DNA of 64,000 bases. It comes from Candidatus Bathyarchaeota archaeon. Its GTDB lineage: Archaea; Thermoproteota; Bathyarchaeia; Bathyarchaeales; Bathycorpusculaceae. Location of the stretch: the NCBI GenBank assembly GCA_963777155.1, contig CAVZPM010000039.1, positions 64,001 to 128,000 on the forward strand, given 5' to 3'. Positions within the stretch are counted from its first letter, which is position 1. Each line of letters begins with the position of its first letter. The notes beneath the pieces were generated by a model that searched no databases, was not told the DNA's origin, and was given only the letters and a program-made list of their open reading frames with translations. A program made the position numbers and the translations under genes. Shown piece by piece: positions 184 to 64,000 of this stretch.

Positions 184-882
184 TTGGTAGCTAACAGAAA
201 GGCGGTTTGGGCGGTGATCATCTTGGTGCTGTTTTGTCTCTTGGCAAACCCACAGTTTTGCGCCATTACACAAGCTCAAACCCAAACGGCTTTCACCACC
301 GCAGATGAATTCAGCATTCCCCAATACAACAGTTCCATAAGGTTTGCCCTAAACGGCTCCTATTCAGCAGCGACGCTGGAAAACGGGTTCTGGACTTTTA
401 AGAATTTAACGCTGTTTTCTCAAAATCTTAGTTTCTTGGGACTCAACGCCACGCAGGGTTCGGGAGAGCTAAAAATATCGGCTAAAAACTCTAATGTTAC
501 TGTCTGGACTTACATTTCTGTAAATTACTCTTTTCCAGTTGATTTACTAAGTTACTATGCAGAGGGCACAGGCAATCAGACCGTAAATCTGGGGTTGAAT
601 GCTTCTCGATCTTCAAGTGATGAGTGGAGTGTTATCGTTGCGGACAGCGTTTTTTTGCCTCTTGGTCAAAATTGGCGCCTTTTGCCTGACGACTCAGTAC
701 TTGTGTGGGACAAGACGGGTAACGTGACTGTTGCTCATTTTAGCTTCAATAATGAATACAAAAATTTGTCTTTCTTTCTTCAGCACTACGTTGGCATATT
801 TACTGTATTACTGTTAGCATTCGTTATTCTTGTGGCAGTTGTAATTAGGGTTCGAGCAAAAAAATTAACAAAGAACCGTTAA
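184..882 (+). CDS. Hypothetical secreted protein with C-terminal membrane anchor
   Basis: N-terminal signal-like hydrophobic stretch, many N-x-S/T sequons, C-terminal TM helix followed by basic tail (RVRAKKLTKNR). Confidence 0.7.
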   Translation: MVANRKAVWAVIILVLFCLLANPQFCAITQAQTQTAFTTADEFSIPQYNSSIRFALNGSYSAATLENGFWTFKNLTLFSQNLSFLGLNATQGSGELKISAKNSNVTVWTYISVNYSFPVDLLSYYAEGTGNQTVNLGLNASRSSSDEWSVIVADSVFLPLGQNWRLLPDDSVLVWDKTGNVTVAHFSFNNEYKNLSFFLQHYVGIFTVLLLAFVILVAVVIRVRAKKLTKNR

Positions 883-959
883 CATCTGTTAGAGTCTTAA
901 CCAGTTGACCTATTTCTATTCATGCAAGCGCAAGGATAATATAGAGAATCACTGAAATT

Positions 960-2142
960 GTGTGTGCACTGAAGGTGCGCGTTGCTATTAAAAGCAAAAT
1001 CAGTACAATTGGATATGTTAACAAAATCCAAGAAAACATTATGGCTATCAAAAAAAGAGAACTTGCACCCCTCTATGAGGAGCTGAAGGCGGCGGACTGT
1101 GTTATCTGCGGAGGGTCAGGACGATCTCTCTACTCATTAAATGCTGCTATGAGCCAGATAGCATTAAGCCAAGCAGGTTGGCGAAATAAAGTTGTCTTAA
1201 CACCTGACGATCCTGGGTTTCCAGGTAAAAGTATGTACGACGCCGCAGCCTACTTGGGACGTCGCTACAAAAAAATCCTGCTTCTAATGAACTCAGGCAG
1301 TGGCTACAGCGACGACCCACTTGTCATGGCACAAGACCTAGCCCAATATATCGAAGAGAAGAAATCCACCCATTTCTCCATGGGGCTCTTAACATCTGCG
1401 GTGGACTCTCCTTTAGCGGAAATAACCGCCAAATACGGCCAAGTTGTTCAACTTAAAGGACGCGGCAAATCCAAACCCGGTCAAGAATACGCTGAAACCG
1501 GAATGATGGGCGACATCTTTGAACTTGGTACACTTGAACTTCTCAATAGTATGATCGAAGCTATATTCTGTAACCTTGAAGTCGGCGACGTCTTCCGTCT
1601 CTGTGAAGAAGAATTCGAGAAAGTCGGCGACATGATAGACGCAAACGTCAACTCAGAAACCTACGCTCAACTCGTAGACATCATGGAGAAACGGACTAAC
1701 GTGTTCCTAGGTGGGAAAGGCACAGGAAACGAAATCGCCAAAATGACAGGAGTAAGACTTTTCCACATCAAAAGCTTCCTCGGAGACAACGTATACATCA
1801 CAAGAGGCGTTAACACTCCCCATCCAAGAGCGGGCGACCTCGAGATTTTGCTATCGTTCTCAGGTGAAACCCGTCCAGTCATCATATGGGCGGATGTACT
1901 GAAAAAATTCGGCGGGAACTGTCTTCGCCATAACTGGCAACAAAGACTCCACACTCGCCAAGAAAGCTGACCTCAAAATCATTTTGCCTGAAGAAGTCAA
2001 GCCATCTACGCCAAGACGTTTCTATACTAGAGCCGCATACGTGCTAAGCCCGTTGCCAGTGAAACTTGCGGAAAGGCTAGGCGAACGAGGACTTAATCTG
2101 CCAGAATACATTATCAGCTGGTACCACTCCGTAACCCAATAA
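960..2142 (+). CDS. Tandem SIS-domain sugar-phosphate isomerase-like protein (PHI-like), frameshifted near 1915
   Basis: Two SIS motif sets (CGGSGRS...NSGSG; LGGKGTG...LSFSGET). After ggcgggaact another frame continues GTVFAITGNKDSTLAKKADLKIILP...SVTQ* to TAA at 2140-2142. True start uncertain (ATG 1041 possible). Confidence 0.7.
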
Positions 2143-2161
2143 TCGCTCAAGAAGCCGAAGT

Positions 2162-3595
2162 TTACGAGTTCCTTAGCCAAAAGGGCTTGCCGAACAAGAA
2201 ATCAGTGAGGAACTCTGCAAACTCTCCATTTTTATTATAAACTTCTATCACTTCGTTGTTAATGAGTACTCTGAAATTTTCACTGATTGTTTTTGCAATC
2301 AAATCAGCGATGCCGCTGTTTTTGCCTCCATCCACCAGCTTTTCTCTTAGAAGCGTAGCGGCATCGGTGGTTTTTCGTGGCAACTCAACTATCCAGCGTC
2401 CGTCTTCTATGTAAGGACCAGAAATTACCTGTTTACTTTTTGTATATTTAGTTAGATACTTTTCGCATTCAGCTTCCCGATCCAACGGCGGACCTAAATG
2501 CTTTTTGATGTCAGGCAGCACCTGCGCCTCAAGCTCAAAGACAAAGACGCTGAGGGTTTTCTCGTTGCTCCAGACATCGTCTTTAAGGACATTGTAATCG
2601 TTAAGCTCAAGAAGCGTGCGCAACGAACGCTTTGACCTATAGAGTTGCCCCCACAAAACATCAGGGACAGCCTTTAACTCACCTATGACCAAAAAAATGA
2701 TAGATGAGCTACGGCTGGTCAATTGACTCTTCAATGTCTCAGGTGACAAAACCATTGGGTTGGGCGGGTAGAAGAAGTCTTGGCTTGGTTTTTTCAGAAA
2801 TGCTCTTGATGCGCCGATAAAAGTGTAGAGTTTTTGGGGCTGCACTGCAGATGCCACGTTTCTTCCTTTGTCAACAGGGTCAACGATAACCAGAGGTTCG
2901 GGAAAGAGCAGTGAGAGTTCTTTTATTCTATCTGCATAAAAGCCCCCCAGGTCAATTACGACTCGCCGATTGTAACGGGCGAAGGCACGCACAGTTTCGG
3001 TGAAAGATCCAAACTTCATAATCAGAAGCTCGCAGAGGTAACCGCTAAAACCTCCAACCTTAATCTCTGCGCCATAGACATTTATGCCCTGCATGAACTT
3101 TTTGAGAAGCCTAACCTCGCCCAGCAACTGCTTACCTAAATGGGTTTTGATGTAGTCGGTATGGTAGGGTGTTCGGTCCGTTGCGCTTTGCCACTCTCCT
3201 GGCTTTGCGTCGTAGCAGGGAACAATGTCGACTCGGTGACCCTCTAAGAAGATTTCAAGGTAAGGGTGCTCAGCGAAACGTTCAAGCTGCTCGGCGTCGC
3301 CGGCTGCTTTTTTAGCAATCTTCAGCCCAACATCACCTAAGCTTTTGCGGGGAATAGATTTAGGCAACCGCATGAAAATGTCGATGTCAAGGCTGTCACT
3401 TAACCAAGTGTCCTTTGCAACAGAGCCTTCTACGCGAACGGTGGCTTTTACTCCTTCTTGTTGACAGGCTAAACTGATTTTTTGCTCTAACGCTTTTGTT
3501 AACGCAGTTACTTTGGCGTAGTCGGCTTTTGTAGGAGTTATTTTCTGTAAAACCTGCTTAGTTAGAGATTCTATTTCCTTCTCCATTTGTATCAT
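2162..3595 (-). CDS. cca: Archaeal CCA-adding tRNA nucleotidyltransferase
   Basis: GSVAKDTWL..DIDIF, AEHPY, DIVPCY, ATDRTPYH, GFSGYLCELL motifs of class I CCA enzymes. Confidence 0.96.
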   Translation of the reverse strand: MIQMEKEIESLTKQVLQKITPTKADYAKVTALTKALEQKISLACQQEGVKATVRVEGSVAKDTWLSDSLDIDIFMRLPKSIPRKSLGDVGLKIAKKAAGDAEQLERFAEHPYLEIFLEGHRVDIVPCYDAKPGEWQSATDRTPYHTDYIKTHLGKQLLGEVRLLKKFMQGINVYGAEIKVGGFSGYLCELLIMKFGSFTETVRAFARYNRRVVIDLGGFYADRIKELSLLFPEPLVIVDPVDKGRNVASAVQPQKLYTFIGASRAFLKKPSQDFFYPPNPMVLSPETLKSQLTSRSSSIIFLVIGELKAVPDVLWGQLYRSKRSLRTLLELNDYNVLKDDVWSNEKTLSVFVFELEAQVLPDIKKHLGPPLDREAECEKYLTKYTKSKQVISGPYIEDGRWIVELPRKTTDAATLLREKLVDGGKNSGIADLIAKTISENFRVLINNEVIEVYNKNGEFAEFLTDFLFGKPFWLRNS

Positions 3596-3596
3596 T

Positions 3597-4160
3597 CTAA
3601 GGACAGTATTCTTTGAGTGTTGAGTAAATTGGACCTTTGGGTGAGAGCTGGCTTTTTTTGAGCCGTAGGCAATCTGCTCTTATGATGCCGAAATCATAGT
3701 TCTCTTGTTTCTGAACCAAATCAACCAGCCGTTGTTTGTTGGCGCCTGAGCGGACTCGTGCAATAGTTAGATGCGGCGTAAACCCATTGGGGTCTGGCGC
3801 GAAGCCAAGTTCGTGAATTTGGGGTTCAAGCTGCTCAAAGATGCTTGTCAGCTGTTGTGCGCCGTCTGTTATTCCTGCCCAAACTACCCTTGGATAATTA
3901 AGAGTTGGAAACACACCAAGCCCTGACAGCCTAATGTTGAAAGGGCTAAACTTCACATTCTTCATGACAGCATGGAGTTTCTCTACCATTTCTGGACTGA
4001 TAGCACCAAGAAAACGAAGCGTAATGTGGATGTTAGATGGCTCTACAAGTTTTAGGTCTGCGTTTGTTTGAATCAACAGTTTTTGCGCAGCGGCAAGCCT
4101 GTTTAGTACACTGTCGTTTTTCATATCGAAAGCGATGAAGCTTCTTATTTGCTCAGACAT
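3597..4160 (-). CDS. thpR: RNA 2',3'-cyclic phosphodiesterase (2H phosphoesterase)
   Basis: Two HxT motifs (HITLRFLG, PHLTIAR), RVVWAG; conserved neighbour of cca. Confidence 0.93.
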   Translation of the reverse strand: MSEQIRSFIAFDMKNDSVLNRLAAAQKLLIQTNADLKLVEPSNIHITLRFLGAISPEMVEKLHAVMKNVKFSPFNIRLSGLGVFPTLNYPRVVWAGITDGAQQLTSIFEQLEPQIHELGFAPDPNGFTPHLTIARVRSGANKQRLVDLVQKQENYDFGIIRADCLRLKKSQLSPKGPIYSTLKEYCP

Positions 4161-4252
4161 TAATTGTTCCTTCTAGTATTTTTAACACATAACCCTCATA
4201 AATGCTTTTTAATCAAGGATGCTGCTATACAACCAAAAAAGGGTAAGTTAAC

Positions 4253-4816
4253 GTGGACACTGACAAACTTGTTATTGGTTTAGCGGGGATGCCTGGCTCA
4301 GGTAAATCCATCGTAGTCGATGTGGCACATGAGATGGGTTATGCCATTGTAGTTATGGGTGATGTGATTAGACAAGAGACACTCAAACGTGGCTTGGAGT
4401 TAACACCCCAAAATGTGGGAAGCGTCATGCTTGAACTAAGAAAGGAAAGTGGGAACTATGTTATCGCTCAAAAATGTGTTCCGAAAATTGAAGAACAGCG
4501 CAGTCTAAAAGTTCTTGTTGACGGGTTAAGAAGCCTTTTCGAAGTAGATATCTTCAAGGAGCACTTTGCTAAATTCAGCTTAGTAGCAGTTCATGCATCT
4601 CCCCAAACACGTTTTAGTCGTCTATCCAACCGACGTCGAAGCGACGATCCAGCTGAATGGAAAGTCTTCCAGGAACGAGATATGCGCGAGCTTGGAGTTG
4701 GTTTGGGAAATGTTATAGCAATGGCTGAACACGTGATAGTGAACGATAATAGCTTCGAGCATGTTAAAGCTAAGGTTAAGGAATCTTTGGAAAGGATTGA
4801 GGGGAAATGGAAATAA
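4253..4816 (+). CDS. P-loop nucleotide kinase, UPF0200 / dephospho-CoA-kinase-like
   Basis: Walker A GMPGSGKS, MGDVIR, VDGLRS, R.DD...F.ERD.REL motifs. Confidence 0.85.
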   Translation: MDTDKLVIGLAGMPGSGKSIVVDVAHEMGYAIVVMGDVIRQETLKRGLELTPQNVGSVMLELRKESGNYVIAQKCVPKIEEQRSLKVLVDGLRSLFEVDIFKEHFAKFSLVAVHASPQTRFSRLSNRRRSDDPAEWKVFQERDMRELGVGLGNVIAMAEHVIVNDNSFEHVKAKVKESLERIEGKWK

Positions 4817-5212
4817 CAGTTTTTGCTCAAACCGAAATCTACCCGACAGAAAGCGAAGACAACGTTAAGGTAGCAGTCAATAATGTTTTGGACAATGTAA
4901 CGCATGACCGTCAAACCCTCGGTTAAAGGTAGTTCCTTAATTGCGACTGCAAAAGGTCAAGATTCTCTAATAAAACTTCGTAACATGTTCCATAACGACC
5001 GAATCCGTGATGCAGCAAGAAGACTACTTTTCAAATCAATCAGAGGCAACATGGTGTCTTTCTGTTTAAACAAGCAGGTAGCGTTTGCAGGGCATGTGTC
5101 CTTTTCTGAAGAGACAGCGGAGTCACCTTTGGGACCTATAAAGATAGATATTGAAGCAGAGCATCCCCAGCAACTAGTCGAGTGGCTGGCAGAAAAAACT
5201 AGAGAAGGATAA
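4807..5212 (+). CDS. UPF0201/DUF54 RNA-binding-fold protein, frameshifted near 4900
   Basis: ATG 4807 gives MEITVFAQTEIYPTESEDNVKVAV; C-terminal part in next frame has LNKQVAFAG..SPLGPI motif. Confidence 0.8.
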
Positions 5213-5215
5213 GGT

Positions 5216-6235
5216 TTGGCGGAAAGGGCATTGGTTACTAAGAGTGGCGCTGTTTTGTTAGGTGACAATGTCGCCTGTGATGCACATGACCCTTCAAGAC
5301 CTCTACGGGTTGTGACACATGCACATGCTGATCACCTTAACGGTTTACGAAGCAGTTTGAAGCGTTGTGAGAAGGTTTTGATGACAAAAGCCACCCGTGA
5401 CCTTACAGAAACCCTCAACGGCTCGCTTAAACTCAAAGATACCCCCTCAGTTAAGACCTTAGAATACGGGAAAGTTCTCAAATACGGCGGCGAAAAAATC
5501 AGCCTCCTAAAAGCTGACCACATTTTGGGTGCATGCCAGGTGTTAGTTGAGGATGCTGGTGGAATACGTATTGTTTGGACTGGCGATTTTAGGCTTGAAG
5601 GCACCCCAGTTGTGGACTGCGACGTGTTAGTGGTTGAAGCTACTTATGGAAATCCCTCTTGTCGACGGAACTTTAGAGTTGACGTACGCGAGCTTTTGGT
5701 TTCTATGATTGAGAAGCGCTTGCGCGGCGGCGCCGTCTATGTTTTCGGTTACCATGGTAAACTCCAAGAAATCATGCAGCTTCTCAGAAATGCGGATGTT
5801 GCGGTTCCTTTTGTTATGCCTGAAAGAGTTTATGAGGTTACTAAGGTCTGCGAGAAACATGGGATGAATTTGGGTTGCCTCTCGCTTTCCACCGACAAGG
5901 AGGGGCATGAACTGCTCGACGATAACTTGCCCTGTGTAGCATTCTATCACATGAATCAACGTCAGCACGTGGGATTGCGTAACGCTCGGATTTGTGTGAG
6001 CGGCTGGGAGTTTCATTCGCCCTGCAGGCAAATCGGTGACCGAGAACATTTAGTGGCGCTTAGTGACCACTCAGACTTTGACGGATTAATCGAGTATGTA
6101 AGGCGCTCTGGGGCAAAGCAAGTTATTACTGACAATTACAGGAGCAACGGAGACGCTTTAGCAAAGGAAATCAACAAGCGCTTAGGCGTCTGCGCGGTTG
6201 CCATGCCCAGAACTAACGGTCAAACTACCCTGTAA
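5216..6235 (+). CDS. MBL-fold (beta-CASP-type) nuclease
   Basis: THAHADH, ADHILG, TGDF, EATYG, SDHSDF motifs. Confidence 0.85.
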   Translation: MAERALVTKSGAVLLGDNVACDAHDPSRPLRVVTHAHADHLNGLRSSLKRCEKVLMTKATRDLTETLNGSLKLKDTPSVKTLEYGKVLKYGGEKISLLKADHILGACQVLVEDAGGIRIVWTGDFRLEGTPVVDCDVLVVEATYGNPSCRRNFRVDVRELLVSMIEKRLRGGAVYVFGYHGKLQEIMQLLRNADVAVPFVMPERVYEVTKVCEKHGMNLGCLSLSTDKEGHELLDDNLPCVAFYHMNQRQHVGLRNARICVSGWEFHSPCRQIGDREHLVALSDHSDFDGLIEYVRRSGAKQVITDNYRSNGDALAKEINKRLGVCAVAMPRTNGQTTL

Positions 6236-6312
6236 GCATAATGTTTTGGGGTAAGGGTTGGTTAAAGTTTAAAAGCAGAAAACCAGACACTCACATGCTA
6301 AGTGACAGAAAC

Positions 6313-7584
6313 ATGGCTAAGTCATCAGTAATTTCAGGCTTCTATAAGCTTCCGCCGAAAGAGCGGCTCGCGATCATTAAAGATTTTGCAGGATTAACCG
6401 AGGATGAAGTTCGTTTATTAGAAAATACCGGTTCTTTGCCTATCGATGTGGCTGACCACATGGTTGAAAACGTCATCGGCGTCTTCCCTGAACCAATGGG
6501 GATAGGAGTTAACTTCCAAATCAACGGAAAAGATTACCTCATCCCGATGGCTACCGAAGAGCCAAGTGTAATTGCAGCCGCCAGCTACGCCGCTAAAATG
6601 GTTCGTGACGGTGGAGGATTCCACACAAGTAGCACAGCGCCTGTGATGATTGGGCAAATCCAAGTGGTAAAAATCAAAGATGCTGAAACAGCAAAAAAAC
6701 AGGTCTTAGGTGCCAAAGTTGATATTCTCAAAAAAGCAAACGATCAAGACCCCGTCCTTAACTCGTTTGGTGGCGGAGCTAAAGACCTCGACGCCCGAGT
6801 CATCGAAACTACGATGGGGCAAATGCTAATCGTGCACTTGTTTGTTGACTGCCGAGATGCTATGGGTGCCAACGCTGTTAACACGATGGCTGAAGCGGTG
6901 TCTCCGATGATTGAGCAGCTTACCGGCGGACAAGTTTACCTGCGAATCATATCTAACTTGGCTGTTAAACGTCTTGCCAAAGCATGGTGTACCGTTCCCA
7001 AAGAAGCCGTTGGTGGGGAAACAGTCGTAGATGGAATCGCTTATGCATCTGCTTTCGCAGCAGCTGACCCATACCGAGCGGCTACCCACAACAAGGGAGC
7101 TATGAACGGCATAATCGCCGTTGTCTTAGCTACAGGCAACGATCACCGAGCCATCGAGGCAGGCGGACACGCTTACGCAGCGTTCAACGGACCCTACACC
7201 TCCTTCTCGAAATGGGTAAAGAATAAAAACGGCGACTTAGAAGGCTCAATCGAGTTGCCGATGGCTGTCGGGTTAATCGGAGGAGCAGTTAAAACCCACC
7301 CAATCGCACGCATCGCCATGAAAATTCTAAACGTGAAGTCCGCCAACGAATTCGGTGAAGTCCTCGCTGCTGTGGGTTTAGCCCAGAACTTGGCTGCACT
7401 TCGTGCACTGTCAAGTGAAGGCATTCAACGTGGTCACATGTCCCTCCACGCAAGAAACATCGCGGTAACAGCAGGCGCCAAAGACGCAATGATCGATTTA
7501 GTGGCGGAGCGGATGGTTAAGGAACGCAGAGTCCGCGTGGACCGAGCTAAAGAAATCCTTGATGAACTATGTACAAAACAATAA
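6313..7584 (+). CDS. mvaA: Class II HMG-CoA reductase
   Basis: ENVIG, PMATEEPSVIAA, DAMGAN, RAATHNKG, GIQRGHMSLHA; start set at ATG 6313. Confidence 0.95.
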   Translation: MAKSSVISGFYKLPPKERLAIIKDFAGLTEDEVRLLENTGSLPIDVADHMVENVIGVFPEPMGIGVNFQINGKDYLIPMATEEPSVIAAASYAAKMVRDGGGFHTSSTAPVMIGQIQVVKIKDAETAKKQVLGAKVDILKKANDQDPVLNSFGGGAKDLDARVIETTMGQMLIVHLFVDCRDAMGANAVNTMAEAVSPMIEQLTGGQVYLRIISNLAVKRLAKAWCTVPKEAVGGETVVDGIAYASAFAAADPYRAATHNKGAMNGIIAVVLATGNDHRAIEAGGHAYAAFNGPYTSFSKWVKNKNGDLEGSIELPMAVGLIGGAVKTHPIARIAMKILNVKSANEFGEVLAAVGLAQNLAALRALSSEGIQRGHMSLHARNIAVTAGAKDAMIDLVAERMVKERRVRVDRAKEILDELCTKQ

Positions 7585-57162: not shown

Positions 57163-57861
57163 TTAGAGGTGTTGTGCTACTATCATGGCGTGTGCTTTGT
57201 CGTAGGGTTCCAAATCGACGATTTCTTTAACGTCGAAACCCCTGTTTCTTAGGATGTTGGCTTCTTGGCGATAGACTGCGTTGGGGTCCATGGTTACGTC
57301 GATGCTTTGGGATTTGCAGGCTAGCATTACCCAGCCTTGGGATTTGAGGAAGACATCAGCGTTGTCCGCCAGCAATTTGGCCTGTTCAGGTTGTGCTACG
57401 TCGCAGTAGATTGTGTCTACTTTTCCTGAGATGAACATGGCATAGCGTTCGGGCATCCGCGCATCTTCCAACATTGGAGAGATGTTGGTTCGGTAAGCAG
57501 CAACGTTATTGACAAGGTCCCGAAGTGAGCGCTGCGCGAATTCAATGCAGTAAACATGTCCGCTGTCGCCTACGATGTCTGAGACGTGGCTGGGAGTGGT
57601 TCCCGAAGCAGCACCCAAATACAACACCTTAAAACCAGGCTCAATAGGAACGTTTTGCACGCCTTTAATGATGCCTCCAGCAAGTTTGCTACGGAAAGCG
57701 TCCCAAACACGGTATTCAACGTATTTGAATTTGAAAAGCCGTTCACCATAAACCCTTAAACCAGGGGTTAAGTTTTTTGTAGCGAGACGTTGTGCGCCGT
57801 CTTCAAGCATTACTTGGTAGATCTCTTTGAATTTTGGGTGCGGTTTAACTTTGAGGTGCAC
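57163..57861 (-). CDS. flpA: Fibrillarin-like rRNA/tRNA 2'-O-methyltransferase
   Basis: VYGER, RSKL, VLYLGAASGTT.SH, DVAQP.Q, LEPYDKAH; start set at GTG 57861. Confidence 0.95.
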   Translation of the reverse strand: MHLKVKPHPKFKEIYQVMLEDGAQRLATKNLTPGLRVYGERLFKFKYVEYRVWDAFRSKLAGGIIKGVQNVPIEPGFKVLYLGAASGTTPSHVSDIVGDSGHVYCIEFAQRSLRDLVNNVAAYRTNISPMLEDARMPERYAMFISGKVDTIYCDVAQPEQAKLLADNADVFLKSQGWVMLACKSQSIDVTMDPNAVYRQEANILRNRGFDVKEIVDLEPYDKAHAMIVAQHL

Positions 57862-59269
57862 GCCTGTCTGGTCCCCGGTTTTGACCGCCACCGCTACTGC
57901 CCCCGCGTCGCTCGCCTCTATCTCGCCCGCCGCCGTAACCAAAATTGCGGCCTCCACCTCCGCCGCCACCGTTTCGTGGTGGTCTTGGACCTCGATCCCC
58001 GCCGCCAAAGTTTTTACCGCCACCTCTGAATCCTCCTCGATCGTCTCTCCGTGGAGGTCGTTGTTCTCGGCGTTCAAATGACCCTTCAGGTCTCGGTTTA
58101 GCTTCTTTTGGTGCTGGCGGTTCCTTGTATTTTTCATGGATTTCTTCTATGCGTTTGTTAATGTCCGCTTTTAATTTGTCTCCGATGTAGTGTCCTCCTC
58201 CGAAGGCGTCTGCTCTGGCTGCGATGGCTAGTTTGCCTGCGATGACTCTAGCGATTTTTCCTCGTTGCCACCTTTTCGCGTCATGGAGCAGGGTGTGCTG
58301 GAAGATTAAGCCGTGTTTTGGTGGTCGGGCTCCTGTTTTTAGGCTACGGAAGAGAGCTTTTTCTGCGCCTATGACTTGGATGGTGCTTGCTGGTCTCATA
58401 GCCAGATTCTGTAAGCTTCCAGCCATAGCGATTAAACGTGCACCCAGAAGGGCACCTGCAACTGAGCGGACGTTAGGTGCCAGTTCCTCCATGGTGTGGT
58501 CAACGTAGTCTTCCATGTTCTTGCGTAACAAATAGAAATCAAGTACGTCCTTAGCTAAGGCTTGTATCATCTCAAGGTCGGCTTCTGCAATGTCTGCGCC
58601 CATGGATGATTCAGCTGCTTTGGCAACAAGTTCGCTTCGTTCTTTCGGAATATTCTCTTTTTCCAGATTGTCAACGGTAAAGTCTTCCCTATCACCCAAG
58701 TTCAAAACAAGCCGTGAATAAGTTTCATGTTTCTCAACTAAGCGGTCAAGTTCAGGGAAGTACACGCCATACCATTCACGGAGTCTACCCATGAATAGGT
58801 TAACGGTTTGGTCTAAACTATCGAGCGTTTGAATGCCTTGAGCAACAATTAGATCGCGCTTTCCAGAGGCACCTTTAATCCTTAGCTTAGCAAGTTCCAA
58901 GCTGACATTGCGATTCCACGTGTTTAGTTCTTGTTCGTCTTGGGCAAAACCTGTTTCGATTGCAACCTCTCCCATACGGGAATGCAACACTGCGGTTTCT
59001 GCTGGCTTGGCAACTTCGACTGCGATTTTCAGCTTCTTTTGAGCTTCCTCTGCCAATTTGGCGGATTCAAAAGCAAACGTGTCATAACCAACGCTTGCTA
59101 AAAGTGTGATTAGTGAAGAGACTTGGTCGGATATTTTTCCCGATTCGGTTCTAAGCAGGCTCTTTGCTGCCGCCTGCGCCTTTTTTGGAAACAATGCTTT
59201 TTCTACTAAGCCGTTATTTTCGTCAAAGGCTGCTACGCCGAAGGGAAATTGAACTATGAATAGTTTCAT
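57845..59269 (-). CDS. nop5: C/D box RNP protein Nop5 (Nop56/58) with RGG-rich C-terminal tail
   Basis: RLREWYG.YFPEL, PASTIQVIGAEKALFR, PPKHGLIFQH, RGKIAR..A.KLAIAAR.D. Confidence 0.95.
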   Translation of the reverse strand: MKLFIVQFPFGVAAFDENNGLVEKALFPKKAQAAAKSLLRTESGKISDQVSSLITLLASVGYDTFAFESAKLAEEAQKKLKIAVEVAKPAETAVLHSRMGEVAIETGFAQDEQELNTWNRNVSLELAKLRIKGASGKRDLIVAQGIQTLDSLDQTVNLFMGRLREWYGVYFPELDRLVEKHETYSRLVLNLGDREDFTVDNLEKENIPKERSELVAKAAESSMGADIAEADLEMIQALAKDVLDFYLLRKNMEDYVDHTMEELAPNVRSVAGALLGARLIAMAGSLQNLAMRPASTIQVIGAEKALFRSLKTGARPPKHGLIFQHTLLHDAKRWQRGKIARVIAGKLAIAARADAFGGGHYIGDKLKADINKRIEEIHEKYKEPPAPKEAKPRPEGSFERREQRPPRRDDRGGFRGGGKNFGGGDRGPRPPRNGGGGGGGRNFGYGGGRDRGERRGGSSGGGQNRGPDRRAPQS

Positions 59270-59563: not shown

Positions 59564-60493
59564 ATGGGCAAACACATACCCGCTCAGAAAACAAAACAAA
59601 AAGCAGCTGAAGCCAAAAATAAAACAGTTACAATTGGGCTTATCCAAACCGTCGTTTCAGAAAACATAGCGGAAAACATGAAAAAAACTGCTGAAAAAAT
59701 TGAACAAGCCGCTAAATTGGGTGCCCAAATCGTGTGCCTCCAAGAACTCTACCGCACAACGTACTTTCCACAGCTGGAAAATCAGGATACAAAGGGCTTA
59801 GCTGAAACCATTCCCGGCAAATCTACAGAGATATTTTCTGGGTTAGCGAAAAAGCATGGAATAGTTATCGTTGCGCCCTTGTTTGAGAAAAGCAGAGAAG
59901 GAAAATTTTACAACACGGCAGTGGTGATTAACTGCGACGGCGAAATAATGGGCACCTACCGGAAAGCCCACATACCTTACGACCCCTACTTCTATGAGAA
60001 AAACTACTTTGAAGCAGGCGACACAGACTATCAGGTTTTTGATACAAGTTATGCTCGAATTGGGGTGCTCATCTGTTATGACCAATGGTTCCCCGAAGCA
60101 GCCCGCATCAATGCTTTGCGAGGTGCAGAAATCATCTTTTATCCAACCGCAATCGGTTACGTTAAAGGCTACACCTCCGCAGATGGAGACTGGCATGACG
60201 CCTGGAAAACCGTGCAGCGTGCCCACGCCATAGCAAACGGAATCCATGTCGCCTCAGTCAACCGAGTAGGCGAGGAGGGCGAGTTGGAGTTTTGGGGTGG
60301 CTCTTTTATCTGCGATAGTTTCGGCAAAGTTGTTGCTGAAGCCAGTACTTCAAAAGAAGAAGTGTTGATTGCAACGTTGGATTTGGGTAAGAACAAGAAA
60401 ATCCAAGAAGGCTGGGGGTTTCTGCGTAATCGACGCCCCGATACATACAAGCAGCTAACCATGGGCGGCAGGAAGGGTGCAGAAGATGAGTAA
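59564..60493 (+). CDS. aguB: N-carbamoylputrescine amidohydrolase (nitrilase fold)
   Basis: CLQEL, YRKAHIP..P.FYEKNYF, LICYDQWFPEAAR, YPTAIG; paired with agmatine deiminase. Confidence 0.88.
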   Translation: MGKHIPAQKTKQKAAEAKNKTVTIGLIQTVVSENIAENMKKTAEKIEQAAKLGAQIVCLQELYRTTYFPQLENQDTKGLAETIPGKSTEIFSGLAKKHGIVIVAPLFEKSREGKFYNTAVVINCDGEIMGTYRKAHIPYDPYFYEKNYFEAGDTDYQVFDTSYARIGVLICYDQWFPEAARINALRGAEIIFYPTAIGYVKGYTSADGDWHDAWKTVQRAHAIANGIHVASVNRVGEEGELEFWGGSFICDSFGKVVAEASTSKEEVLIATLDLGKNKKIQEGWGFLRNRRPDTYKQLTMGGRKGAEDE

Positions 60494-61535
60494 CTCCGAA
60501 AAAAGCTGCCGTGAACAGGGCTTTTGTATGCCTGCAGAATGGGAAAAACACGACGCTATCTGGCTCGCGTGGCCGTATGACCCGACAACTTTTCCGGACC
60601 GGGTGCATCGCGTTGAAGCCGTTTACGTCCAAATAATCAAAGAGATCCATGAGGGTGAACAAGTAAACCTCTTTGTCATCGATCAGCCTACTAAACAGAA
60701 AGCAACAAAGTTGTTTAAAGAAGCGAACATCGACCTAAACAAAATCCATTTCTACGTTTCCGATTATGCTGACGTCTGGTTTAGGGATTATGGCCCCATA
60801 TTTGTTAGAAACCAGAACCACGAGCTTGCAATGGTTCACTGGGATTTTAATTCTTGGGGAGAAAAATACGAAACGCTCTTAAAAGACAAGCAAATCCCTG
60901 CCGTTATAAACCAAAAAATGTCCATTAAATGCTTTAAACCTGGCATCGTTCTGGAAGGTGGCTCAATAGATGTCAACGGCAAAGGAAGCTTGCTGACCAC
61001 AGAGCAATGCCTGCTTAATAAGAATCGTAACCCGCATCTTGGCAAAAAAGACATTGAAAAATTCCTATCCGAATACTTGGGAGTAACCAATTTTATTTGG
61101 CTCAAGAACGGCATTTTGGGCGATGACACCGATGGCCACATCGACGACCTAGCCCGATTCGTCGACCCAGCTACAATCGTTTGCGCTTATCAAGACAACG
61201 AAAACGACGTAGACTACGATGCTCTAAAAGAAAACTATGACATCCTGTGCCAATCGCACGATCAAGACGGCAAAAAATTCCGTATTATCAAGTTACCCAT
61301 GCCCAAAGTCGTCAGCGACGAAGATGAACGACTGCCTGCAAGCTACACAAACTTCTACATCGGCAACCAAAAAGTTCTGGTTCCAGTTTTCGATCACAAA
61401 AACGACTCAAAAGCTCTCTCGATTTTGCAAAAGCTGTTCCCAGCCCGTAAGGTGGTCGGCATCCGATGCGTTGACTTGGTTTACGGCTTTGGCACAATCC
61501 ACTGCATTAGTCAACAACAGCCCTGCGGTGTTTAA
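60486..61535 (+). CDS. aguA: Agmatine deiminase
   Basis: MPAEW, WFRDYGP, LEGGSI, DDTDGHID, ASY.NF, G.IHC.SQQ. Confidence 0.93.
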   Translation: MSNSEKSCREQGFCMPAEWEKHDAIWLAWPYDPTTFPDRVHRVEAVYVQIIKEIHEGEQVNLFVIDQPTKQKATKLFKEANIDLNKIHFYVSDYADVWFRDYGPIFVRNQNHELAMVHWDFNSWGEKYETLLKDKQIPAVINQKMSIKCFKPGIVLEGGSIDVNGKGSLLTTEQCLLNKNRNPHLGKKDIEKFLSEYLGVTNFIWLKNGILGDDTDGHIDDLARFVDPATIVCAYQDNENDVDYDALKENYDILCQSHDQDGKKFRIIKLPMPKVVSDEDERLPASYTNFYIGNQKVLVPVFDHKNDSKALSILQKLFPARKVVGIRCVDLVYGFGTIHCISQQQPCGV

Positions 61536-61568
61536 GAGTCAAACATAACATGGCAAAGTCCATTTTTA

Positions 61569-61588
61569 GTTAAGTTTAAACCCTTAAC
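61569..61588 (+). promoter_or_regulatory. Inverted repeat GTTAAG-N8-CTTAAC overlapping a TATA-like TTTAAA
   Basis: Read directly, about 50-70 bp upstream of ATG 61640. Confidence 0.4.
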
Positions 61589-61639
61589 CTCCATAATAGG
61601 TAAACCCCACAGTTTGAGGAGTTCTGGAGAGAATAGGGC

Positions 61640-63856
61640 ATGGTAAATCAACCACCGATTCGTGCACGCGGCGTCAAAGTGCTAAAAGCCGTTTCGTCAC
61701 CGCTTAGGCTGCAAATTCTCAATTTACTCTTCGACAAAAGCGCCCTTAGCTATACCGAACTTATGAACCAACTCAAAATGAACCCCAGCCGAGACGCAGG
61801 CAGATTCGCCTACCACCTAAAATTCATGCTTAAAGCTGACTTGGTTGAGGCAGATGTGGAAGCAAAAAAATATTACCTCACTGACCTCGGCAAGATGGTT
61901 TTGGATGTGGCTGACCGCGTGGAGAAAAAAGCAGTCAAGCCACGTGGCATGTTGGTTCGTACGTCACATTTGACGATGGAAGAGTTTGATGTTAATAAAA
62001 TCGCAAATTCACTAATCAAAGAGGCGAAGGTTCCAGCGGAGTTGGCTCAGAAAGCCGCTAAAGAAGCCGAGAAACGCCTTATCAAATCCAAAACAAAGTA
62101 CCTGACGGCAGCCTTGATCCGGGAAGTCGTGAACGGCATTTTGGTGGAGAAGGGCTATGAGGATTACCGTCATAAGCTTACCCGAGTCGGGATGCCAATC
62201 CACGAAGTAACTTCTCTAATCGAAACTAAAGAGGGCATGCAGGACTGTCAAGCTACAATTAGCAAAGCAGGACAAGCAGTCTTAGGTGAATACACACTCC
62301 TGAATATTTTTCCAAGAGACATCGCTGACGCCCACCTGTCAGGCGCTATCCACGTCGACAACTTAGGCACCTGGGTCCTAAAACCCAACGAAGTAATCCA
62401 TGACATACGATACTTCTTTCAACACGGTGTCAAACTTGACAACCTACTTCAAGTTGCAATGGAACCGCCAACTGACCTAAAATCCGCTCTATCTATCGCC
62501 TTTAACGTGCTTTTGCACGCCAGCAAAGAAACCAATCGGACTCAAAACTTCAACTACTTCAATGTATTCCTCGCGCCTTATATCAGAGGCAACGAAGTGG
62601 CAAAAATTAAGGAAAACCTGCGGTTATTCATACAGAGCCTTAACCAGCACGTAGATGCAACATTAGGTCTTGAGATTGCAGTTCCCACGTTGTTGTCGGA
62701 AAAAGAAGCTGTGGGGTCGGGAGGCAAACTAAACGGTAAGTACAGCGATTTCTCCCAAGAAAGCCAACTTGTAGCCTCACTTGTCATCGATGTCTTCACA
62801 GAAGAGAGTTCAGTTAAACCTCTTCTAAGCCCCAAACTAATAATAAAAATTAACAGTTTAGCTTTGGTTGATGAAAACGCCAAAGCGATTCTGCTTAAAG
62901 CTCACCAATTAGCTGTGAAAAGCGGTGTTCTATACTTTGCCAACATGACCAAAAAAGAAACCGAAAACATAGCATTTTCATCCTCAGGGGTCAAGCTAGC
63001 TGCGGATTTGATAGGCGACTGGGAAACGGATACATTGCGAACCGGTTGTTTGGGCTGTGTAACCATAAACATGCCTAGAATTACTCAGGAATGTGAGAAA
63101 GACAAGAACAAGTTCTTCGATTTGATGCGTGAACGCTTCGAACTCGCCGCTCGTGCGCTGGGCATAAAGAACAATGCACTCAAGCAATTCGGGAAGAACT
63201 CGCTTCCATTTCTGTTGCAGAAATCAGACCGCGACACTTATTTCCGTCTTGAAAACTGTAGCCGAATCGTAAACTTGGTCGGGTTCCGAGAAGCCATCGA
63301 AGCCTTCACAGAGAAAACTGTCAACTCAGAGGAGAGCCGTAAATTCACAGAAGAAATCATAAGCAACCTGATGGCTTTTAGGCAGAAAATCGGCAGAAAA
63401 TACGGGAAACGACTTTACCCCGTTATCCTCGGCAGTCCTGAAGCCTCTGAGCGGTTGGCACAACTGGACATTGAACGGTACGGTGTTGCTAAAGTGAAGT
63501 TTTCAGGAACAAGAGACAAACCCTACTATTCAACGGTCAAACGGTTCCAGCTGAAACCCTCTGATTTTCTAGCTTTGCAGACGGATGCATTGGAGACAGC
63601 GAAGAGACTTAAGGGATTAAGCGCAGGGGGAAACCTGAGCATCATTGAACTTGAAAACGTCGAGTACAAGCCGGAGGCGCTCATGGATCTGACGGTGCGT
63701 TTGATGGAGAACTACGCACTGGAGTTCTTTACGTACAACCGCCAAATCAGTGTCTGCGATAACTGCAAGAAGAATTGGTTTGGAACATTGCATAAGTGTC
63801 CTTCGTGCGGCTCTATGAGCAACCTGACAACGTTCGACCGGTTTACTTCGATTTGA
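61640..63856 (+). CDS. ArsR-like wHTH + ATP-cone + catalytically degenerate class III RNR (NrdD-like) fusion
   Basis: wHTH aa ~10-95; ATP-cone VRTS...FD..KI..SL; NrdD motifs ADAH..G.IH, DTLRTG, T.NMPR, CDNC/CPSCG; ends RFTSI instead of R..GY. Confidence 0.85.
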   Translation: MVNQPPIRARGVKVLKAVSSPLRLQILNLLFDKSALSYTELMNQLKMNPSRDAGRFAYHLKFMLKADLVEADVEAKKYYLTDLGKMVLDVADRVEKKAVKPRGMLVRTSHLTMEEFDVNKIANSLIKEAKVPAELAQKAAKEAEKRLIKSKTKYLTAALIREVVNGILVEKGYEDYRHKLTRVGMPIHEVTSLIETKEGMQDCQATISKAGQAVLGEYTLLNIFPRDIADAHLSGAIHVDNLGTWVLKPNEVIHDIRYFFQHGVKLDNLLQVAMEPPTDLKSALSIAFNVLLHASKETNRTQNFNYFNVFLAPYIRGNEVAKIKENLRLFIQSLNQHVDATLGLEIAVPTLLSEKEAVGSGGKLNGKYSDFSQESQLVASLVIDVFTEESSVKPLLSPKLIIKINSLALVDENAKAILLKAHQLAVKSGVLYFANMTKKETENIAFSSSGVKLAADLIGDWETDTLRTGCLGCVTINMPRITQECEKDKNKFFDLMRERFELAARALGIKNNALKQFGKNSLPFLLQKSDRDTYFRLENCSRIVNLVGFREAIEAFTEKTVNSEESRKFTEEIISNLMAFRQKIGRKYGKRLYPVILGSPEASERLAQLDIERYGVAKVKFSGTRDKPYYSTVKRFQLKPSDFLALQTDALETAKRLKGLSAGGNLSIIELENVEYKPEALMDLTVRLMENYALEFFTYNRQISVCDNCKKNWFGTLHKCPSCGSMSNLTTFDRFTSI

Positions 63857-64000
<144 letters not shown>

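What the first reader, a model, noticed from the sequence alone, without database searches (positions are those of the whole stretch)
61640..63856. Ribonucleotide-reductase pseudoenzyme fused to a DNA-binding domain: candidate archaeal nucleotide-sensing transcription factor
Seen: an N-terminal ArsR-like wHTH, an ATP-cone, then a full-length class III RNR (NrdD)-like body with the C-terminal Zn site (CDNC/CPSCG). The radical machinery appears to be missing. The glycyl-radical loop R-x-x-G-Y reads RFTSI (aa 734-738) and ends at a stop abutting the pyrB stop, so a frameshift cannot be hiding it. The thiyl finger loop (normally MGCR) reads FSSSGVK (aa ~446-452). The first active-site Cys position reads KPNE (aa ~251). 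No NrdG activase is adjacent. Known: NrdD needs the Gly radical and the finger-loop Cys; ATP-cones and RNR specificity sites bind (d)NTPs; bacteria use the ATP-cone repressor NrdR. Inference: a dead RNR retained as an allosteric (d)NTP sensor that drives a wHTH, i.e. a functional analogue of NrdR built from the enzyme itself, located next to pyrimidine biosynthesis (pyrB). Automated pipelines would probably mislabel it nrdD.
Basis: partly seen in the sequence, partly recalled or inferred. Interest (0 to 1): 0.88.

Follow-up and report, generated by a model that had tools for sequence, protein, structure and literature searches.

The report
Dead anaerobic reductase fused to DNA-binding domain
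This archaeal gene encodes a full-length copy of the anaerobic ribonucleotide reductase that has lost its catalytic residues, kept a highly conserved ATP-sensing domain and gained a DNA-binding domain, so it is most likely an undescribed nucleotide-sensing gene regulator that databases label as an enzyme.

Summary
The ORF at 61640..63856 (+), 738 aa, has an ArsR-like wHTH, an ATP-cone and an NrdD body. The beta-A Cys reads E251, the finger loop reads SSGVK with no Cys, the HxHD triphosphate motif reads HVDN, and the protein ends RFTSI* against the pyrB stop.

It is not a decayed allele. It belongs to one large clade (Bathyarchaeia, Jordarchaeia, Nitrososphaerales, Caldarchaeales by source names). 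All 65 divergent members scanned carry DUF7347 and NRDD; 64 carry the ATP-cone. No member combines a radical Gly with both Cys.

In this genus dN/dS is about 0.07. The ATP-cone and its linker are the most conserved part of the protein.

In 8 of 16 sister-family genomes the gene lies directly upstream of a working nrdD.

A new point for this window: 23 of 24 same-genus genomes also hold a classical nrdR-nrdD-nrdG operon with NrdR-box-like palindromes. In this genus the dead paralog has no nrd gene beside it. It is therefore not simply an NrdR substitute here, and its targets are unknown.

DNA binding and nucleotide binding are untested. Eight earlier notes of this scan describe the same family on other DNA. 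Seven literature searches found no description.

The parts
61640..63856 (+). Whole gene, 738 aa: wHTH + ATP-cone + catalytically dead NrdD body (called PAR in this report)
61562..61606 (+). Upstream block conserved across the genus: GTTAAGTTTAAAC (61569-61581, TATA-like) and ATAATAGGTA (61593-61602). Probable promoter, possibly with an operator.
   Evidence: the block is conserved in the 22 upstream regions printed, with variants in the more distant members (16 of 22 matched my anchor pattern), while the flanks differ; the exact 13-mer occurs once in the 2.29-Mb assembly. Function is inferred.
61679..61906 (+). Winged helix-turn-helix, aa 14-89 (DUF7347 / ArsR-like). The FAYHL recognition-helix motif is at aa 56-60.
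   Evidence: H59, Y78 and G84 are invariant, and R23, L30, G54, F56, Y58, L60 and T81 are at least 90% conserved in 75 sequences. DUF7347 matches 65 of 65 divergent members.
61952..62170 (+). ATP-cone, aa 105-177, a 'VRTS' variant of the usual VxKRDG hairpin. The conserved linker runs on to about aa 190.
   Evidence: 28.8 bits vs 25.8. 27 of the 52 columns that are at least 90% conserved lie in aa 106-186. dN/dS 0.046. The model shows a beta-hairpin followed by helices.
62249..63841 (+). NrdD-like ten-stranded barrel body, aa 204-734
   Evidence: NRDD 223 bits. TIGR02487 scores 248.8, under its cut-off of 326.35. Foldseek best hits are NrdD of S. thermophilus, P. copri, T. maritima and T4, E 1e-18 to 2e-26.
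62351..62362 (+). HVDN (aa 238-241) in place of the substrate-triphosphate motif HxHD
   Evidence: HxHD in 0 of 77 family rows and 9 of 10 genuine NrdDs. The role of the motif is taken from passages of PMC11226230.
62390..62392 (+). E251 codon, at the position of the conserved beta-A active-site Cys (T4 Cys79)
62975..62995 (+). Finger-loop remnant FSSSGVK (aa 446-452). By motif, V451 (or by MAFFT, S448/S449) stands where the thiyl-radical Cys of MGCR/MCCR should be.
   Evidence: In 83 close homologues of 738 aa the residue is V 62, I 18, A 2, F 1.
63755..63808 (+). Retained Zn-ribbon cysteines: C706, C709, C720, C723
   Evidence: Each is at least 90% conserved in 75 sequences.
63833..63856 (+). 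Truncated C-terminal tail FDRFTSI plus stop. S737 aligns with the radical Gly of RVxG[FWY].
   Evidence: The tail is FDRFxS[T/I]-like in the close clade, with Ser in 106 of the 111 tails that fit the pattern, out of 120.
63857..64000 (-). 3' end of pyrB (aspartate carbamoyltransferase), tail-to-tail with no spacer
   Evidence: TIGR00670 395.5 vs cut-off 236.95.

Best explanation
PAR is a pseudoenzyme transcription regulator. It is an NrdD paralog that can no longer make or use a radical. It keeps the NrdD fold as a scaffold (inferred to be dimeric, as in NrdD). It reads adenine nucleotides (ATP/dATP or energy charge) through its strongly conserved ATP-cone. It passes that signal to an N-terminal ArsR-like winged helix that binds promoter DNA.

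Ancestrally it sat at the head of an nrdH-nrdD cluster and probably controlled it. In this genus that cluster has been replaced by an nrdR-nrdD-nrdG operon elsewhere in the genome. PAR is nevertheless kept under strong purifying selection. It therefore probably regulates itself and other, still unidentified genes; pyrimidine or dNTP-supply genes are the obvious candidates.

Shown here: the domain architecture, the loss of catalytic residues, family-wide conservation, purifying selection and the gene neighbourhoods. Inferred: nucleotide binding, DNA binding, dimerisation, the direction of regulation and the targets.
For: Architecture and fold: (pLDDT 89.6, pTM 0.81).

Catalytic loss:
- E251 at the Cys column, which is Cys in 10 of 10 genuine NrdDs.
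- No Cys in the finger loop.
- HxHD in 0 of 77 family rows against 9 of 10 genuine rows.
- The tail stops at RFTSI.

Not a one-off:
- More than 120 clusters at 75% identity or above share the four Pfam domains.
- 90 of the 150 listed 50%-identity representatives carry the wHTH. None of the 90 has the strict Gly motif and 1 of 90 has a finger-like xCR motif.
- Pfam on 65 divergent members: NRDD 65, DUF7347 65, ATP-cone 64.
- On a tree of the core region alone, the family is one clade of 78 rows (77 with the wHTH), SH-like support 99.

Selection: in 21 genus orthologues dN/dS is 0.067 overall, 0.037 for the wHTH, 0.046 for the cone and 0.080 for the core.

Sensor: 27 of the 52 columns at least 90% conserved lie in aa 106-186. 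These include R107, E114, F116, R161, Y176, R177 and R182.

Context:
- In 8 of 16 genomes of other families of the order, PAR lies directly upstream of, and co-directional with, a genuine nrdD, sometimes with a glutaredoxin-like ORF between.
- A shared promoter signature, TACAnnATTTTtATAc-N6-8-TCTAAAAAATT, stands before nrd genes there.
- A 45-nt block upstream of PAR is conserved across the genus.
Against: No experiment or computation here shows that the cone binds a nucleotide or that the wHTH binds DNA.

- The cone is divergent. It is barely over Pfam's cut-off, has VRTS instead of VxKRDG, and alone finds no solved ATP-cone by sequence.
- In this genus a true NrdR with NrdR-box-like palindromes sits in front of nrdD. 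PAR is therefore not needed to explain nrd control here, and no nrd gene is next to it.
- I found no dyad operator shared between the PAR and nrd promoters. The palindrome GTTAAG-N8-CTTAAC in this window is not conserved in congeners.
- The nrd promoter signature was derived from the same loci in which most of its hits lie, and it may be only a strong promoter.
- pyrB is convergent, not co-transcribed.
- dS is near saturation: only 42 of 210 pairs were usable for the whole gene.
Confidence: 0.6

Rival explanations
1. PAR is a non-DNA-binding pseudoenzyme. It would bind or heterodimerise with the working NrdD, or another protein, and tune its activity. The N-terminal winged helix would serve protein contacts.
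For: The NrdD fold, with its dimer-forming body, is retained. PAR is adjacent to nrdD in 8 of 16 sister-family genomes. The core is under purifying selection, dN/dS 0.080.
Against: The wHTH keeps the ArsR-type recognition-helix pattern (FAYHL, with H59 invariant) and the wing residues Y78, T81 and G84. In this genus PAR persists although the NrdD type it used to accompany is gone; the resident NrdD belongs to a distant branch. Heterodimerisation could not be tested because the chains are too long for the complex tool.
Confidence: 0.15
2. PAR is a DNA-binding regulator, but its signal or regulon has nothing to do with dNTP supply. For example it could be a general energy-charge sensor, or in this genus a regulator of unrelated genes.
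For: In the 23 of 24 genus loci with readable flanks the neighbours are polyamine genes, Nop5 or other genes upstream and pyrB downstream. No nrd gene is adjacent. NrdR is present for nrd control. The PAR promoter 13-mer is unique in the genome.
Against: The descent from NrdD, the ATP-cone and the ancestral position in front of nrdH-nrdD all point to nucleotide metabolism. pyrB adjacency is kept in 23 of 24 genus loci and in 8 of 16 other loci within 240 nt.
Confidence: 0.17
3. PAR is still a radical enzyme of an unconventional kind. It would be a seryl-radical relative of the aminoacyl radical enzymes, with S737 as the radical site.
For: Homologues of glycyl radical enzymes with Ala, Ser or Thr at the Gly site form stable radicals (PMC11528403, abstract and passages). 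S737 aligns with the Gly. Ser stands there in 106 of 111 close homologues. The four Zn-ribbon Cys are kept.
Against: There is no Cys in the finger loop or on beta-A, so no thiyl radical relay. HxHD is lost. The chain ends one residue after the Ser, with no aromatic residue and no following helix. Across the family the position varies: A, S, T, N, G, P. No activase is adjacent, and none scores over the cut-off in this assembly. The aminoacyl radical enzymes described keep both the Cys and a partner activase.
Confidence: 0.03
4. PAR is a decaying pseudogene or an annotation artefact.
For: One congener holds a second, stop-ridden copy (G004) and another holds a fragmented copy (G023).
Against: The frame is intact at 737-740 aa from the shared start (a few mechanical ORF calls run from an earlier start codon) in 20 of 24 congeners, and two more copies are cut only by contig ends. 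dN/dS is 0.067. The family is conserved at 25-45% identity across several archaeal classes.
Confidence: 0.02

Closest known systems
NrdR (TIGR00244), the RNR-specific repressor of bacteria and some archaea
   Same: A DNA-binding domain joined to an ATP-cone, and a genomic link to RNR genes. NrdR reads ATP against dATP through the cone and changes its oligomeric state to bind promoter boxes (PMC9110341, abstract and passages).
   Different: NrdR is about 150 aa with a Zn-ribbon DNA binder and no enzyme body. PAR is 738 aa with a wHTH and a whole dead NrdD. PAR does not match TIGR00244. Congeners carry a true NrdR as well, so the two are not interchangeable here.
ATP-cone-bearing class III RNR NrdD (Prevotella copri 8p2s/8p23; Streptococcus thermophilus 9d3x/9dca)
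   Same: The same fold (Foldseek E about 1e-25, TM normalised to the target 0.60-0.74), the same order ATP-cone then barrel then Zn ribbon, and the retained NxPR and GG motifs.
   Different: PAR lacks the beta-A Cys, the finger-loop Cys, HxHD, the Gly motif and the C-terminal helix. It scores under the NrdD equivalog cut-off. It has an extra N-terminal wHTH.
wHTH regulators with an enzyme-derived effector domain (MocR/GabR/PdxR type, ROK repressors). Recalled from memory, not tested here.
   Same: The same design principle: a DNA-binding domain fused to a catalytically altered enzyme fold that serves as the ligand sensor or dimerisation module.
   Different: The enzyme folds are unrelated. None is derived from a ribonucleotide reductase or a glycyl radical enzyme.
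Aminoacyl radical enzymes (Ala, Ser or Thr at the radical site; PMC11528403)
   Same: Homologues of glycyl radical enzymes with Ser in place of the radical Gly.
   Different: Those enzymes keep the catalytic Cys, the aromatic residue after the radical site and a partner activase. PAR has none of these.

Membership tests
Active class III RNR catalytic subunit (NrdD) | NrdD fold and Pfam NRDD domain | tested here: met
   PF13597 223.2 bits. Foldseek best hits are NrdD structures.
Active class III RNR catalytic subunit (NrdD) | Score over the curated equivalog cut-off (TIGR02487) | tested here: not met
   248.8 against a cut-off of 326.35. All other NrdD equivalogs score far below theirs.
Active class III RNR catalytic subunit (NrdD) | C-terminal glycyl-radical motif RVxG[FWY] | tested here: not met
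   The protein ends RFTSI followed by a stop. Genuine neighbours read SRITGY or SRVVGY.
Active class III RNR catalytic subunit (NrdD) | Thiyl-radical Cys on the finger loop (MGCR/MCCR; PMC preprint 10.1101/2022.04.23.489257, passages) | tested here: not met
   SSGVK. There is no Cys between residues 204 and 469.
Active class III RNR catalytic subunit (NrdD) | Conserved beta-A Cys | tested here: not met
   E251. The column is Cys in 10 of 10 genuine NrdDs.
Active class III RNR catalytic subunit (NrdD) | HxHD substrate-triphosphate motif | tested here: not met
   HVDN. 0 of 77 family rows have HxHD.
Active class III RNR catalytic subunit (NrdD) | Partner activase NrdG | tested here: not met
   None is adjacent. 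No TIGR02495 match over the cut-off in the assembly, which is 90.6% complete.
Active class III RNR catalytic subunit (NrdD) | Four-Cys Zn ribbon | tested here: met
   C706, C709, C720, C723.
NrdR | N-terminal Zn-ribbon DNA-binding domain and a TIGR00244 match | tested here: not met
   No TIGR00244 hit for the protein. The N-terminus is a wHTH.
NrdR | ATP-cone | tested here: met
   PF03477 28.8 bits against 25.8. 64 of 65 family members match.
NrdR | ATP/dATP-dependent binding to boxes at RNR promoters | not testable with these tools
   The box-like palindromes seen upstream of nrdR in congeners belong with NrdR itself.
ArsR/SmtB-type wHTH regulators | HTH_5 domain over the Pfam cut-off | tested here: met
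   27.2 bits against 22. 30 of 65 family members match HTH_5 and 49 of 65 match HTH_20.
ArsR/SmtB-type wHTH regulators | Metalloregulator subfamily score (NF033788) | tested here: not met
   31.5 against a cut-off of 55.
ArsR/SmtB-type wHTH regulators | Sequence-specific DNA binding as a dimer | not testable with these tools
   No tool here measures DNA binding or the oligomeric state. The single self-association prediction that was run is recorded under Tried and rejected.
Aminoacyl radical enzymes | RVx[A/S/T][FWY] motif, catalytic Cys and an adjacent activase | tested here: not met
   Ser stands at the site, but it is followed by I and the stop. There is no Cys and no activase.

The most novel reading that the evidence does not exclude
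PAR is the long-missing archaeal regulator of DNA-precursor supply. It would be ancestral to the TACK and Asgard lineages. A dead NrdD dimer would read the ATP/dATP balance through its cone and switch a pair of winged helices on promoter DNA. In this genus a classical nrdR-nrdDG cassette replaced the original nrdH-nrdD, and PAR was kept because it governs further genes such as pyrimidine synthesis. The conserved small residue (Ser here) at the old radical site and the retained Zn ribbon could mean that the buried C-terminal loop still acts as a conformational latch.
Probability: 0.3. Interest if true: 0.85.

Novelty: new variant of a known kind. Interest (0 to 1): 0.72.

Why it matters
How most archaea control ribonucleotide reductase genes is unknown. 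NrdR is described as present in most bacteria and only some archaea (PMC9110341, abstract). A large family built from the reductase itself, with its most conserved part an ATP-cone, gives a concrete and testable candidate for that role.

It would also be a rare case of a radical enzyme turned into a transcription factor.

There is a practical consequence. Source labels call most members 'anaerobic ribonucleoside-triphosphate reductase'. Metabolic reconstructions of Bathyarchaeia, Nitrososphaerales and Asgard genomes can therefore count a class III RNR that is not there. In this very assembly PAR is the only NRDD hit.

The coexistence with NrdR in this genus offers a natural experiment on what PAR does once it is uncoupled from nrd genes.

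Tried and rejected
1. Self-association of the N-terminal wHTH plus cone (aa 1-200, two copies, alignment A1) with complex prediction gave 'no support' (score 0.08, mark 0.42). This is neither for nor against binding. The full-length or core dimer and a PAR-NrdD heterodimer exceed the 1000-residue limit and were not run.

2. Operator hunt.
- The palindrome GTTAAG-N8-CTTAAC in this window's promoter is not conserved in congeners.
- Genome scans with the promoter 13-mer (up to 2 mismatches), the second block and a combined pattern gave no regulon. The combined pattern was badly specified and missed even its own site.
- The nrd promoter signature has no hit in the own genome. I saw none by eye in the regions printed upstream of the longest ORF of six loci holding class II RNR genes, two of which start inside the gene.

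3. The ATP-cone segment alone against PDB sequences gave only chance-level hits to prolidases. I therefore could not map nucleotide-contact residues residue by residue.

4. A split-off glycyl-radical domain elsewhere in the genome: PF01228 gives 0 hits.

5. Expression. One wetland RNA-library run (X23, Logan contigs) covers parts of the gene at 90-100% likeness. Contigs of an RNA library may contain DNA and show no transcript ends, so this is not counted as evidence of transcription.

6. The first MAFFT run timed out and was repeated with faster settings. The Pfam scan of A1 exceeded the size limit and was repeated on the smaller A2.

7. My column-based test for 'wHTH present' mislabelled genuine NrdDs that have long N-termini. 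I replaced it with an HMM of the wHTH.
Full report
THE OBSERVATION

The ORF at 61640..63856 (+) is real: 738 aa with an ATG start. Four Pfam domains pass their gathering scores:
- DUF7347, aa 14-89
- HTH_5 (ArsR), aa 20-70
- ATP-cone, aa 105-177
- NRDD, aa 204-734

NCBIfam's NrdD equivalog TIGR02487 scores 248.8, under its cut-off of 326.35. No NrdR model matches.

The protein has nine Cys: 203, 470, 473, 485, 540, 706, 709, 720 and 723. None lies in either radical loop.

Alignment to T4 NrdD (1h78) and to 9d3x puts the query's N250-E251-V252 under T4's N78-C79-C80. It puts Ala and no Cys under the Cys of PMGCRSF.

I aligned the query with 96 representatives and five genuine NrdDs translated from relatives' loci. 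E251 falls in the column that is Cys in 10 of 10 genuine NrdDs. The finger loop SQCCR, SMCCR or MGCR corresponds to SSGVK.

It recognises the substrate triphosphate in NrdD (PMC11226230, passages). It reads HVDN here. It is absent from 77 of 77 family rows and present in 9 of 10 genuine rows.

The chain ends RFTSI, then TGA. The next base begins the stop of a minus-strand aspartate carbamoyltransferase (TIGR00670, 395.5 bits). A frameshift therefore cannot hide a Gly motif.

An AlphaFold2 model built on a 75-sequence alignment is confident: mean pLDDT 89.6, pTM 0.81. Only the linker at aa 99-102 and the first four residues fall below 50. Its best PDB matches are the NrdDs of S. thermophilus, P. 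copri, T. maritima and T4 (E 2e-26 to 3e-18).

NOT A ONE-OFF

The word-indexed search lists more than 120 clusters at 75% identity or above. Nearly all have the same length (most are 738 aa), and all but two of those listed carry the same four Pfam domains on record. Nearly every source name among them is an (anaerobic) ribonucleoside-triphosphate reductase. One says 'ArsR family transcriptional regulator'.

The exhaustive search of 50%-identity representatives finds 1722 proteins at E <= 0.001 and lists the best 150. I built an HMM of the N-terminal domain. It finds that domain in 90 of the 150.
- None of the 90 has the strict motif R[IVLMA][STVCA]G[YFW] in its last 90 residues.
- One of the 90 (P0134) has a finger-like [MSQAT][GC]CR.
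- The 21 full-length proteins that have the Gly motif all lack the wHTH.

With looser patterns on the 70 longest family members, 2 keep R..G[YFW] (P0145, P0163) and 14 keep [RKH]..G.[YFLM]. The members that keep the strict motif have no Cys in the finger loop. A few others have a stray Cys at an odd position there (P0156) or the xCR motif with a truncated tail (P0134), but none combines a Gly motif with both catalytic Cys. 'Gly lost' is therefore not universal. The loss of both Cys and of HxHD is the firmer argument for inactivity.

Tails differ in length, measured from the last CxxC:
- 34 of 70 keep a vestigial tail of 35 residues or more.
- 29 are cut short, as here.
- 7 have no CxxC in the last 120 residues.

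Pfam on 65 divergent members (24-45% identical to the query) gives NRDD 65, DUF7347 65 and ATP-cone 64.

A FastTree of the core region alone, with the wHTH and cone columns left out, places 77 wHTH rows in one clade of 78 with SH-like support 99. The one extra row is probably a truncated gene call. The clade stands apart from the genuine NrdDs. This is a quick tree with many open forks, and I rooted it on the NrdR-linked NrdD type by my own choice.

Source names place members in Bathyarchaeia, Jordarchaeia/Freyarchaeota, Nitrososphaerales and Ca. Terraquivivens.

SELECTION AND WHAT IS CONSERVED

I compared 21 intact genus orthologues (this window plus 20). Nei-Gojobori dN/dS values are:
- whole gene 0.067
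- wHTH 0.037
- cone 0.046
- core 0.080
- finger region 0.117
- C-terminus 0.074

dS is about 1.5 and many pairs were saturated. Only 42 of 210 pairs were usable for the whole gene.

Across 75 family sequences, 14 columns are invariant and 38 more are at least 90% conserved. Twenty-seven of these 52 lie in aa 106-186, the cone and its linker: V106, R107, S109, E114, F116, I121, L125, E128, R161, N165, Y176, R177, R182, G184, P186 and others.

Ten lie in the wHTH. They include the ArsR-like FAYHL helix with invariant H59 and the wing residues Y78, T81 and G84.

Fifteen lie in the 535-residue body: D230, H232, G235, N477-x-P479-R480, G548, R605, D610, Y630, G664 and the four Zn Cys.

The nucleotide-binding module and the DNA-binding module are thus the constrained parts. 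The old active site is not.

The cone is a variant, VRTS instead of VxKRDG. Genuine archaeal NrdDs next to PAR share this variant (VRTSK...).

NEIGHBOURHOODS

PAR is the only NRDD match in the window's own assembly (2.29 Mb, 39 contigs, 90.6% complete). The assembly has:
- no class I/II large subunit (PF02867)
- no NrdG over the cut-off
- no NrdR
- no Gly_radical domain

Since an RNR is needed for DNA synthesis, I read this as an assembly gap. It is not evidence that PAR is the enzyme.

In 23 of 24 same-genus genomes there is, elsewhere in the genome, a full NrdD. It scores about 650 bits where whole; it is split or cut in G007, G009, G015 and G016 and lies in four pieces in G011. G021, which is 65% complete, has neither gene.

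That NrdD is preceded by a gene that passes the NrdR equivalog cut-off in the same 23 genomes. In the three loci I read through (G003, G014, G019) it is followed by a 225-aa radical-SAM ORF, confirmed as NrdG in G014. The G014 scores are NrdR 156.4, NrdD NF006126 1071.8 and NrdG TIGR02495 180.9, all over their cut-offs.

Upstream of nrdR lie paired GTAGTGT...ACACTAC elements that resemble NrdR boxes. The resemblance to the box consensus is recalled, not computed.

PAR itself is found in 23 of the 24 congeners: 20 intact, 2 cut by contig ends and 1 fragmented. G004 has an extra degraded copy.

In 23 of 24 genus loci, counting the window, pyrB follows tail-to-tail. The gap is 0-7 nt in 18 of them. 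In the last locus the contig ends inside PAR.

The 16 genomes of other families of the order show an older-looking order. In 8 of them (G025, G026, G029, G030, G031, G037, G039, G040) PAR lies directly upstream of a genuine, VRTS-cone NrdD on the same strand. In G026, G030 and G040 a glutaredoxin-like ORF lies between them (one was confirmed by Pfam), and the G037 intergenic stretch holds a similar short reading frame. In six of the eight a convergent pyrB follows within about 240 nt, and in G025, G026, G030 and G039 a pyrI follows that.

The genus arrangement therefore looks like that order with nrdH-nrdD removed. I read the pyrB adjacency here mainly as inherited synteny.

CANDIDATE CIS ELEMENTS (INFERENCE)

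Upstream of PAR the genus shares a block of about 45 nt, window 61562-61606. It contains GTTAAGTTTAAAC and (A/T)ATAGGTA, set between unconserved flanks. The 13-mer occurs once in the assembly.

In the sister families the spacer between PAR and nrdH/nrdD carries TACAnnATTTTtATAc-N6-8-TCTAAAAAATT. I wrote this pattern from those loci. It hits 7 distinct sites in 0.60 Mb of fetched loci. All 7 lie before an nrd gene or just after PAR. Two of them were not used to write the pattern: the second NrdD of G039, and the contig end after PAR in G032. It has no hit in the own genome.

These may be operators or simply promoters. I found no dyad shared by both.

HOW IT PROBABLY WORKS

The evidence fits a regulator in which the ATP-cone senses adenine nucleotides. 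The dead NrdD body provides a rigid scaffold, probably dimeric. The tethered wHTH binds promoter DNA.

This follows the logic of NrdR (PMC9110341) and of cone-driven rearrangements in NrdD enzymes (PMC11226230; PMC12662201, listing only). I put this at 0.6.

It is not a member of the NrdR family. It fails six of the eight defining features of an active NrdD that I tested.

Because congeners also have NrdR, PAR in this genus probably controls its own gene and targets other than, or in addition to, nrdDG.

An unconventional seryl-radical enzyme is a rival worth naming. Ser, Ala and Thr radicals exist in homologues of glycyl radical enzymes (PMC11528403). Ser stands at the aligned site in 106 of 111 close homologues. 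But the missing Cys residues, the missing HxHD, the missing aromatic residue and helix, and the missing activase make it unlikely (0.03).

NOVELTY

Seven full-text searches found no paper describing the family. One of them was aimed at the NrdD structure papers rather than at the family. 'DUF7347' occurs in no paper held. The large RNR phylogeny preprint (10.1101/2022.04.23.489257, searched by terms) has no occurrence of 'DNA-binding', 'non-catalytic' or 'inactive'. Subscription journals and supplementary files were not searchable.

Eight earlier AI notes of this scan describe the same family on other DNA. I tested their common claims here and agree. I add the coexistence with NrdR, the HxHD loss, the retained Gly in some members, and the dominance of the cone in the conservation profile.

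Noticed in passing
L018 (G014) 698-3962; also L005-L007, L009, L011-L019 and L021-L026, and L085-L088: Same-genus archaeal genomes carry a classical nrdR-nrdD-nrdG operon. All three genes score over NCBIfam cut-offs in G014. Paired GTAGTGT...ACACTAC palindromes that resemble NrdR boxes overlap a TATA-like element upstream of nrdR. NrdR was found in 23 of 24 congeners but in only 2 of 16 genomes of other families over the cut-off.
   Followed up: partly
whole assembly G000: The window's own assembly (90.6% complete) has no detectable working RNR of any class and no NrdR or NrdG. The nrdR-nrdD-nrdG locus seen in congeners is probably in the unassembled part.
   Followed up: partly
proteins P0198, P0200, P0247, P0263 and P0223, P0244, P0246, P0252, P0253, P0267: Two further clades have an ATP-cone plus an NrdD-like body with no wHTH, no Gly motif and mostly no Zn ribbon. 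They nest among genuine NrdDs. They may be independent dead-NrdD lineages.
   Followed up: no
proteins P0173, P0178, P0194, P0195, P0201, P0205, P0210, P0211, P0213, P0218, P0220, P0230, P0239, P0269: These genuine NrdD relatives are 1100-1700 aa long and match the query in 2-4 separate stretches. They keep SRITGY tails where these were printed. They look intein-bearing; this was not checked.
   Followed up: no
L070 3069-3236 and L080 (G029, G039), spacer after PAR: The spacer after the shortened PAR genes holds GTGTGTCAATTTT. This resembles the coding sequence for the last residues (..YVLIS) of longer PAR tails in G030 and G032. It suggests a recent truncation by a premature stop.
   Followed up: no
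window 57845..59269 (-): The Nop5/Nop56-like protein ends in a long Gly/Arg-rich tail (RGG/GGG repeats, about 90 aa). The longest ORF call of the fibrillarin gene next to it (57163..58137) overlaps it by about 290 nt, so its true start is probably further in.
   Followed up: no
window 59564..61535 (+): N-carbamoylputrescine amidase-like (CN hydrolase) and agmatine deiminase-like genes overlap by 17 nt directly upstream of PAR. This pair is present in 12 of 24 genus loci. The agmatine deiminase name is my reading of the sequence; only the CN hydrolase was scanned, in a congener.
   Followed up: partly
L049 (G004) 1097-3097 and L084 (G023) 4191-6532: G004 has a second PAR copy broken by stops beside the intact one. 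In G023 the only copy is in three or more frames. This could be decay or assembly error.
   Followed up: no
window 61563-61640 (records 9 and 10): Two contigs of an RNA-library run match the window only from 61563/61564 onward and differ upstream. That point is exactly where the genus-conserved promoter block begins.
   Followed up: no
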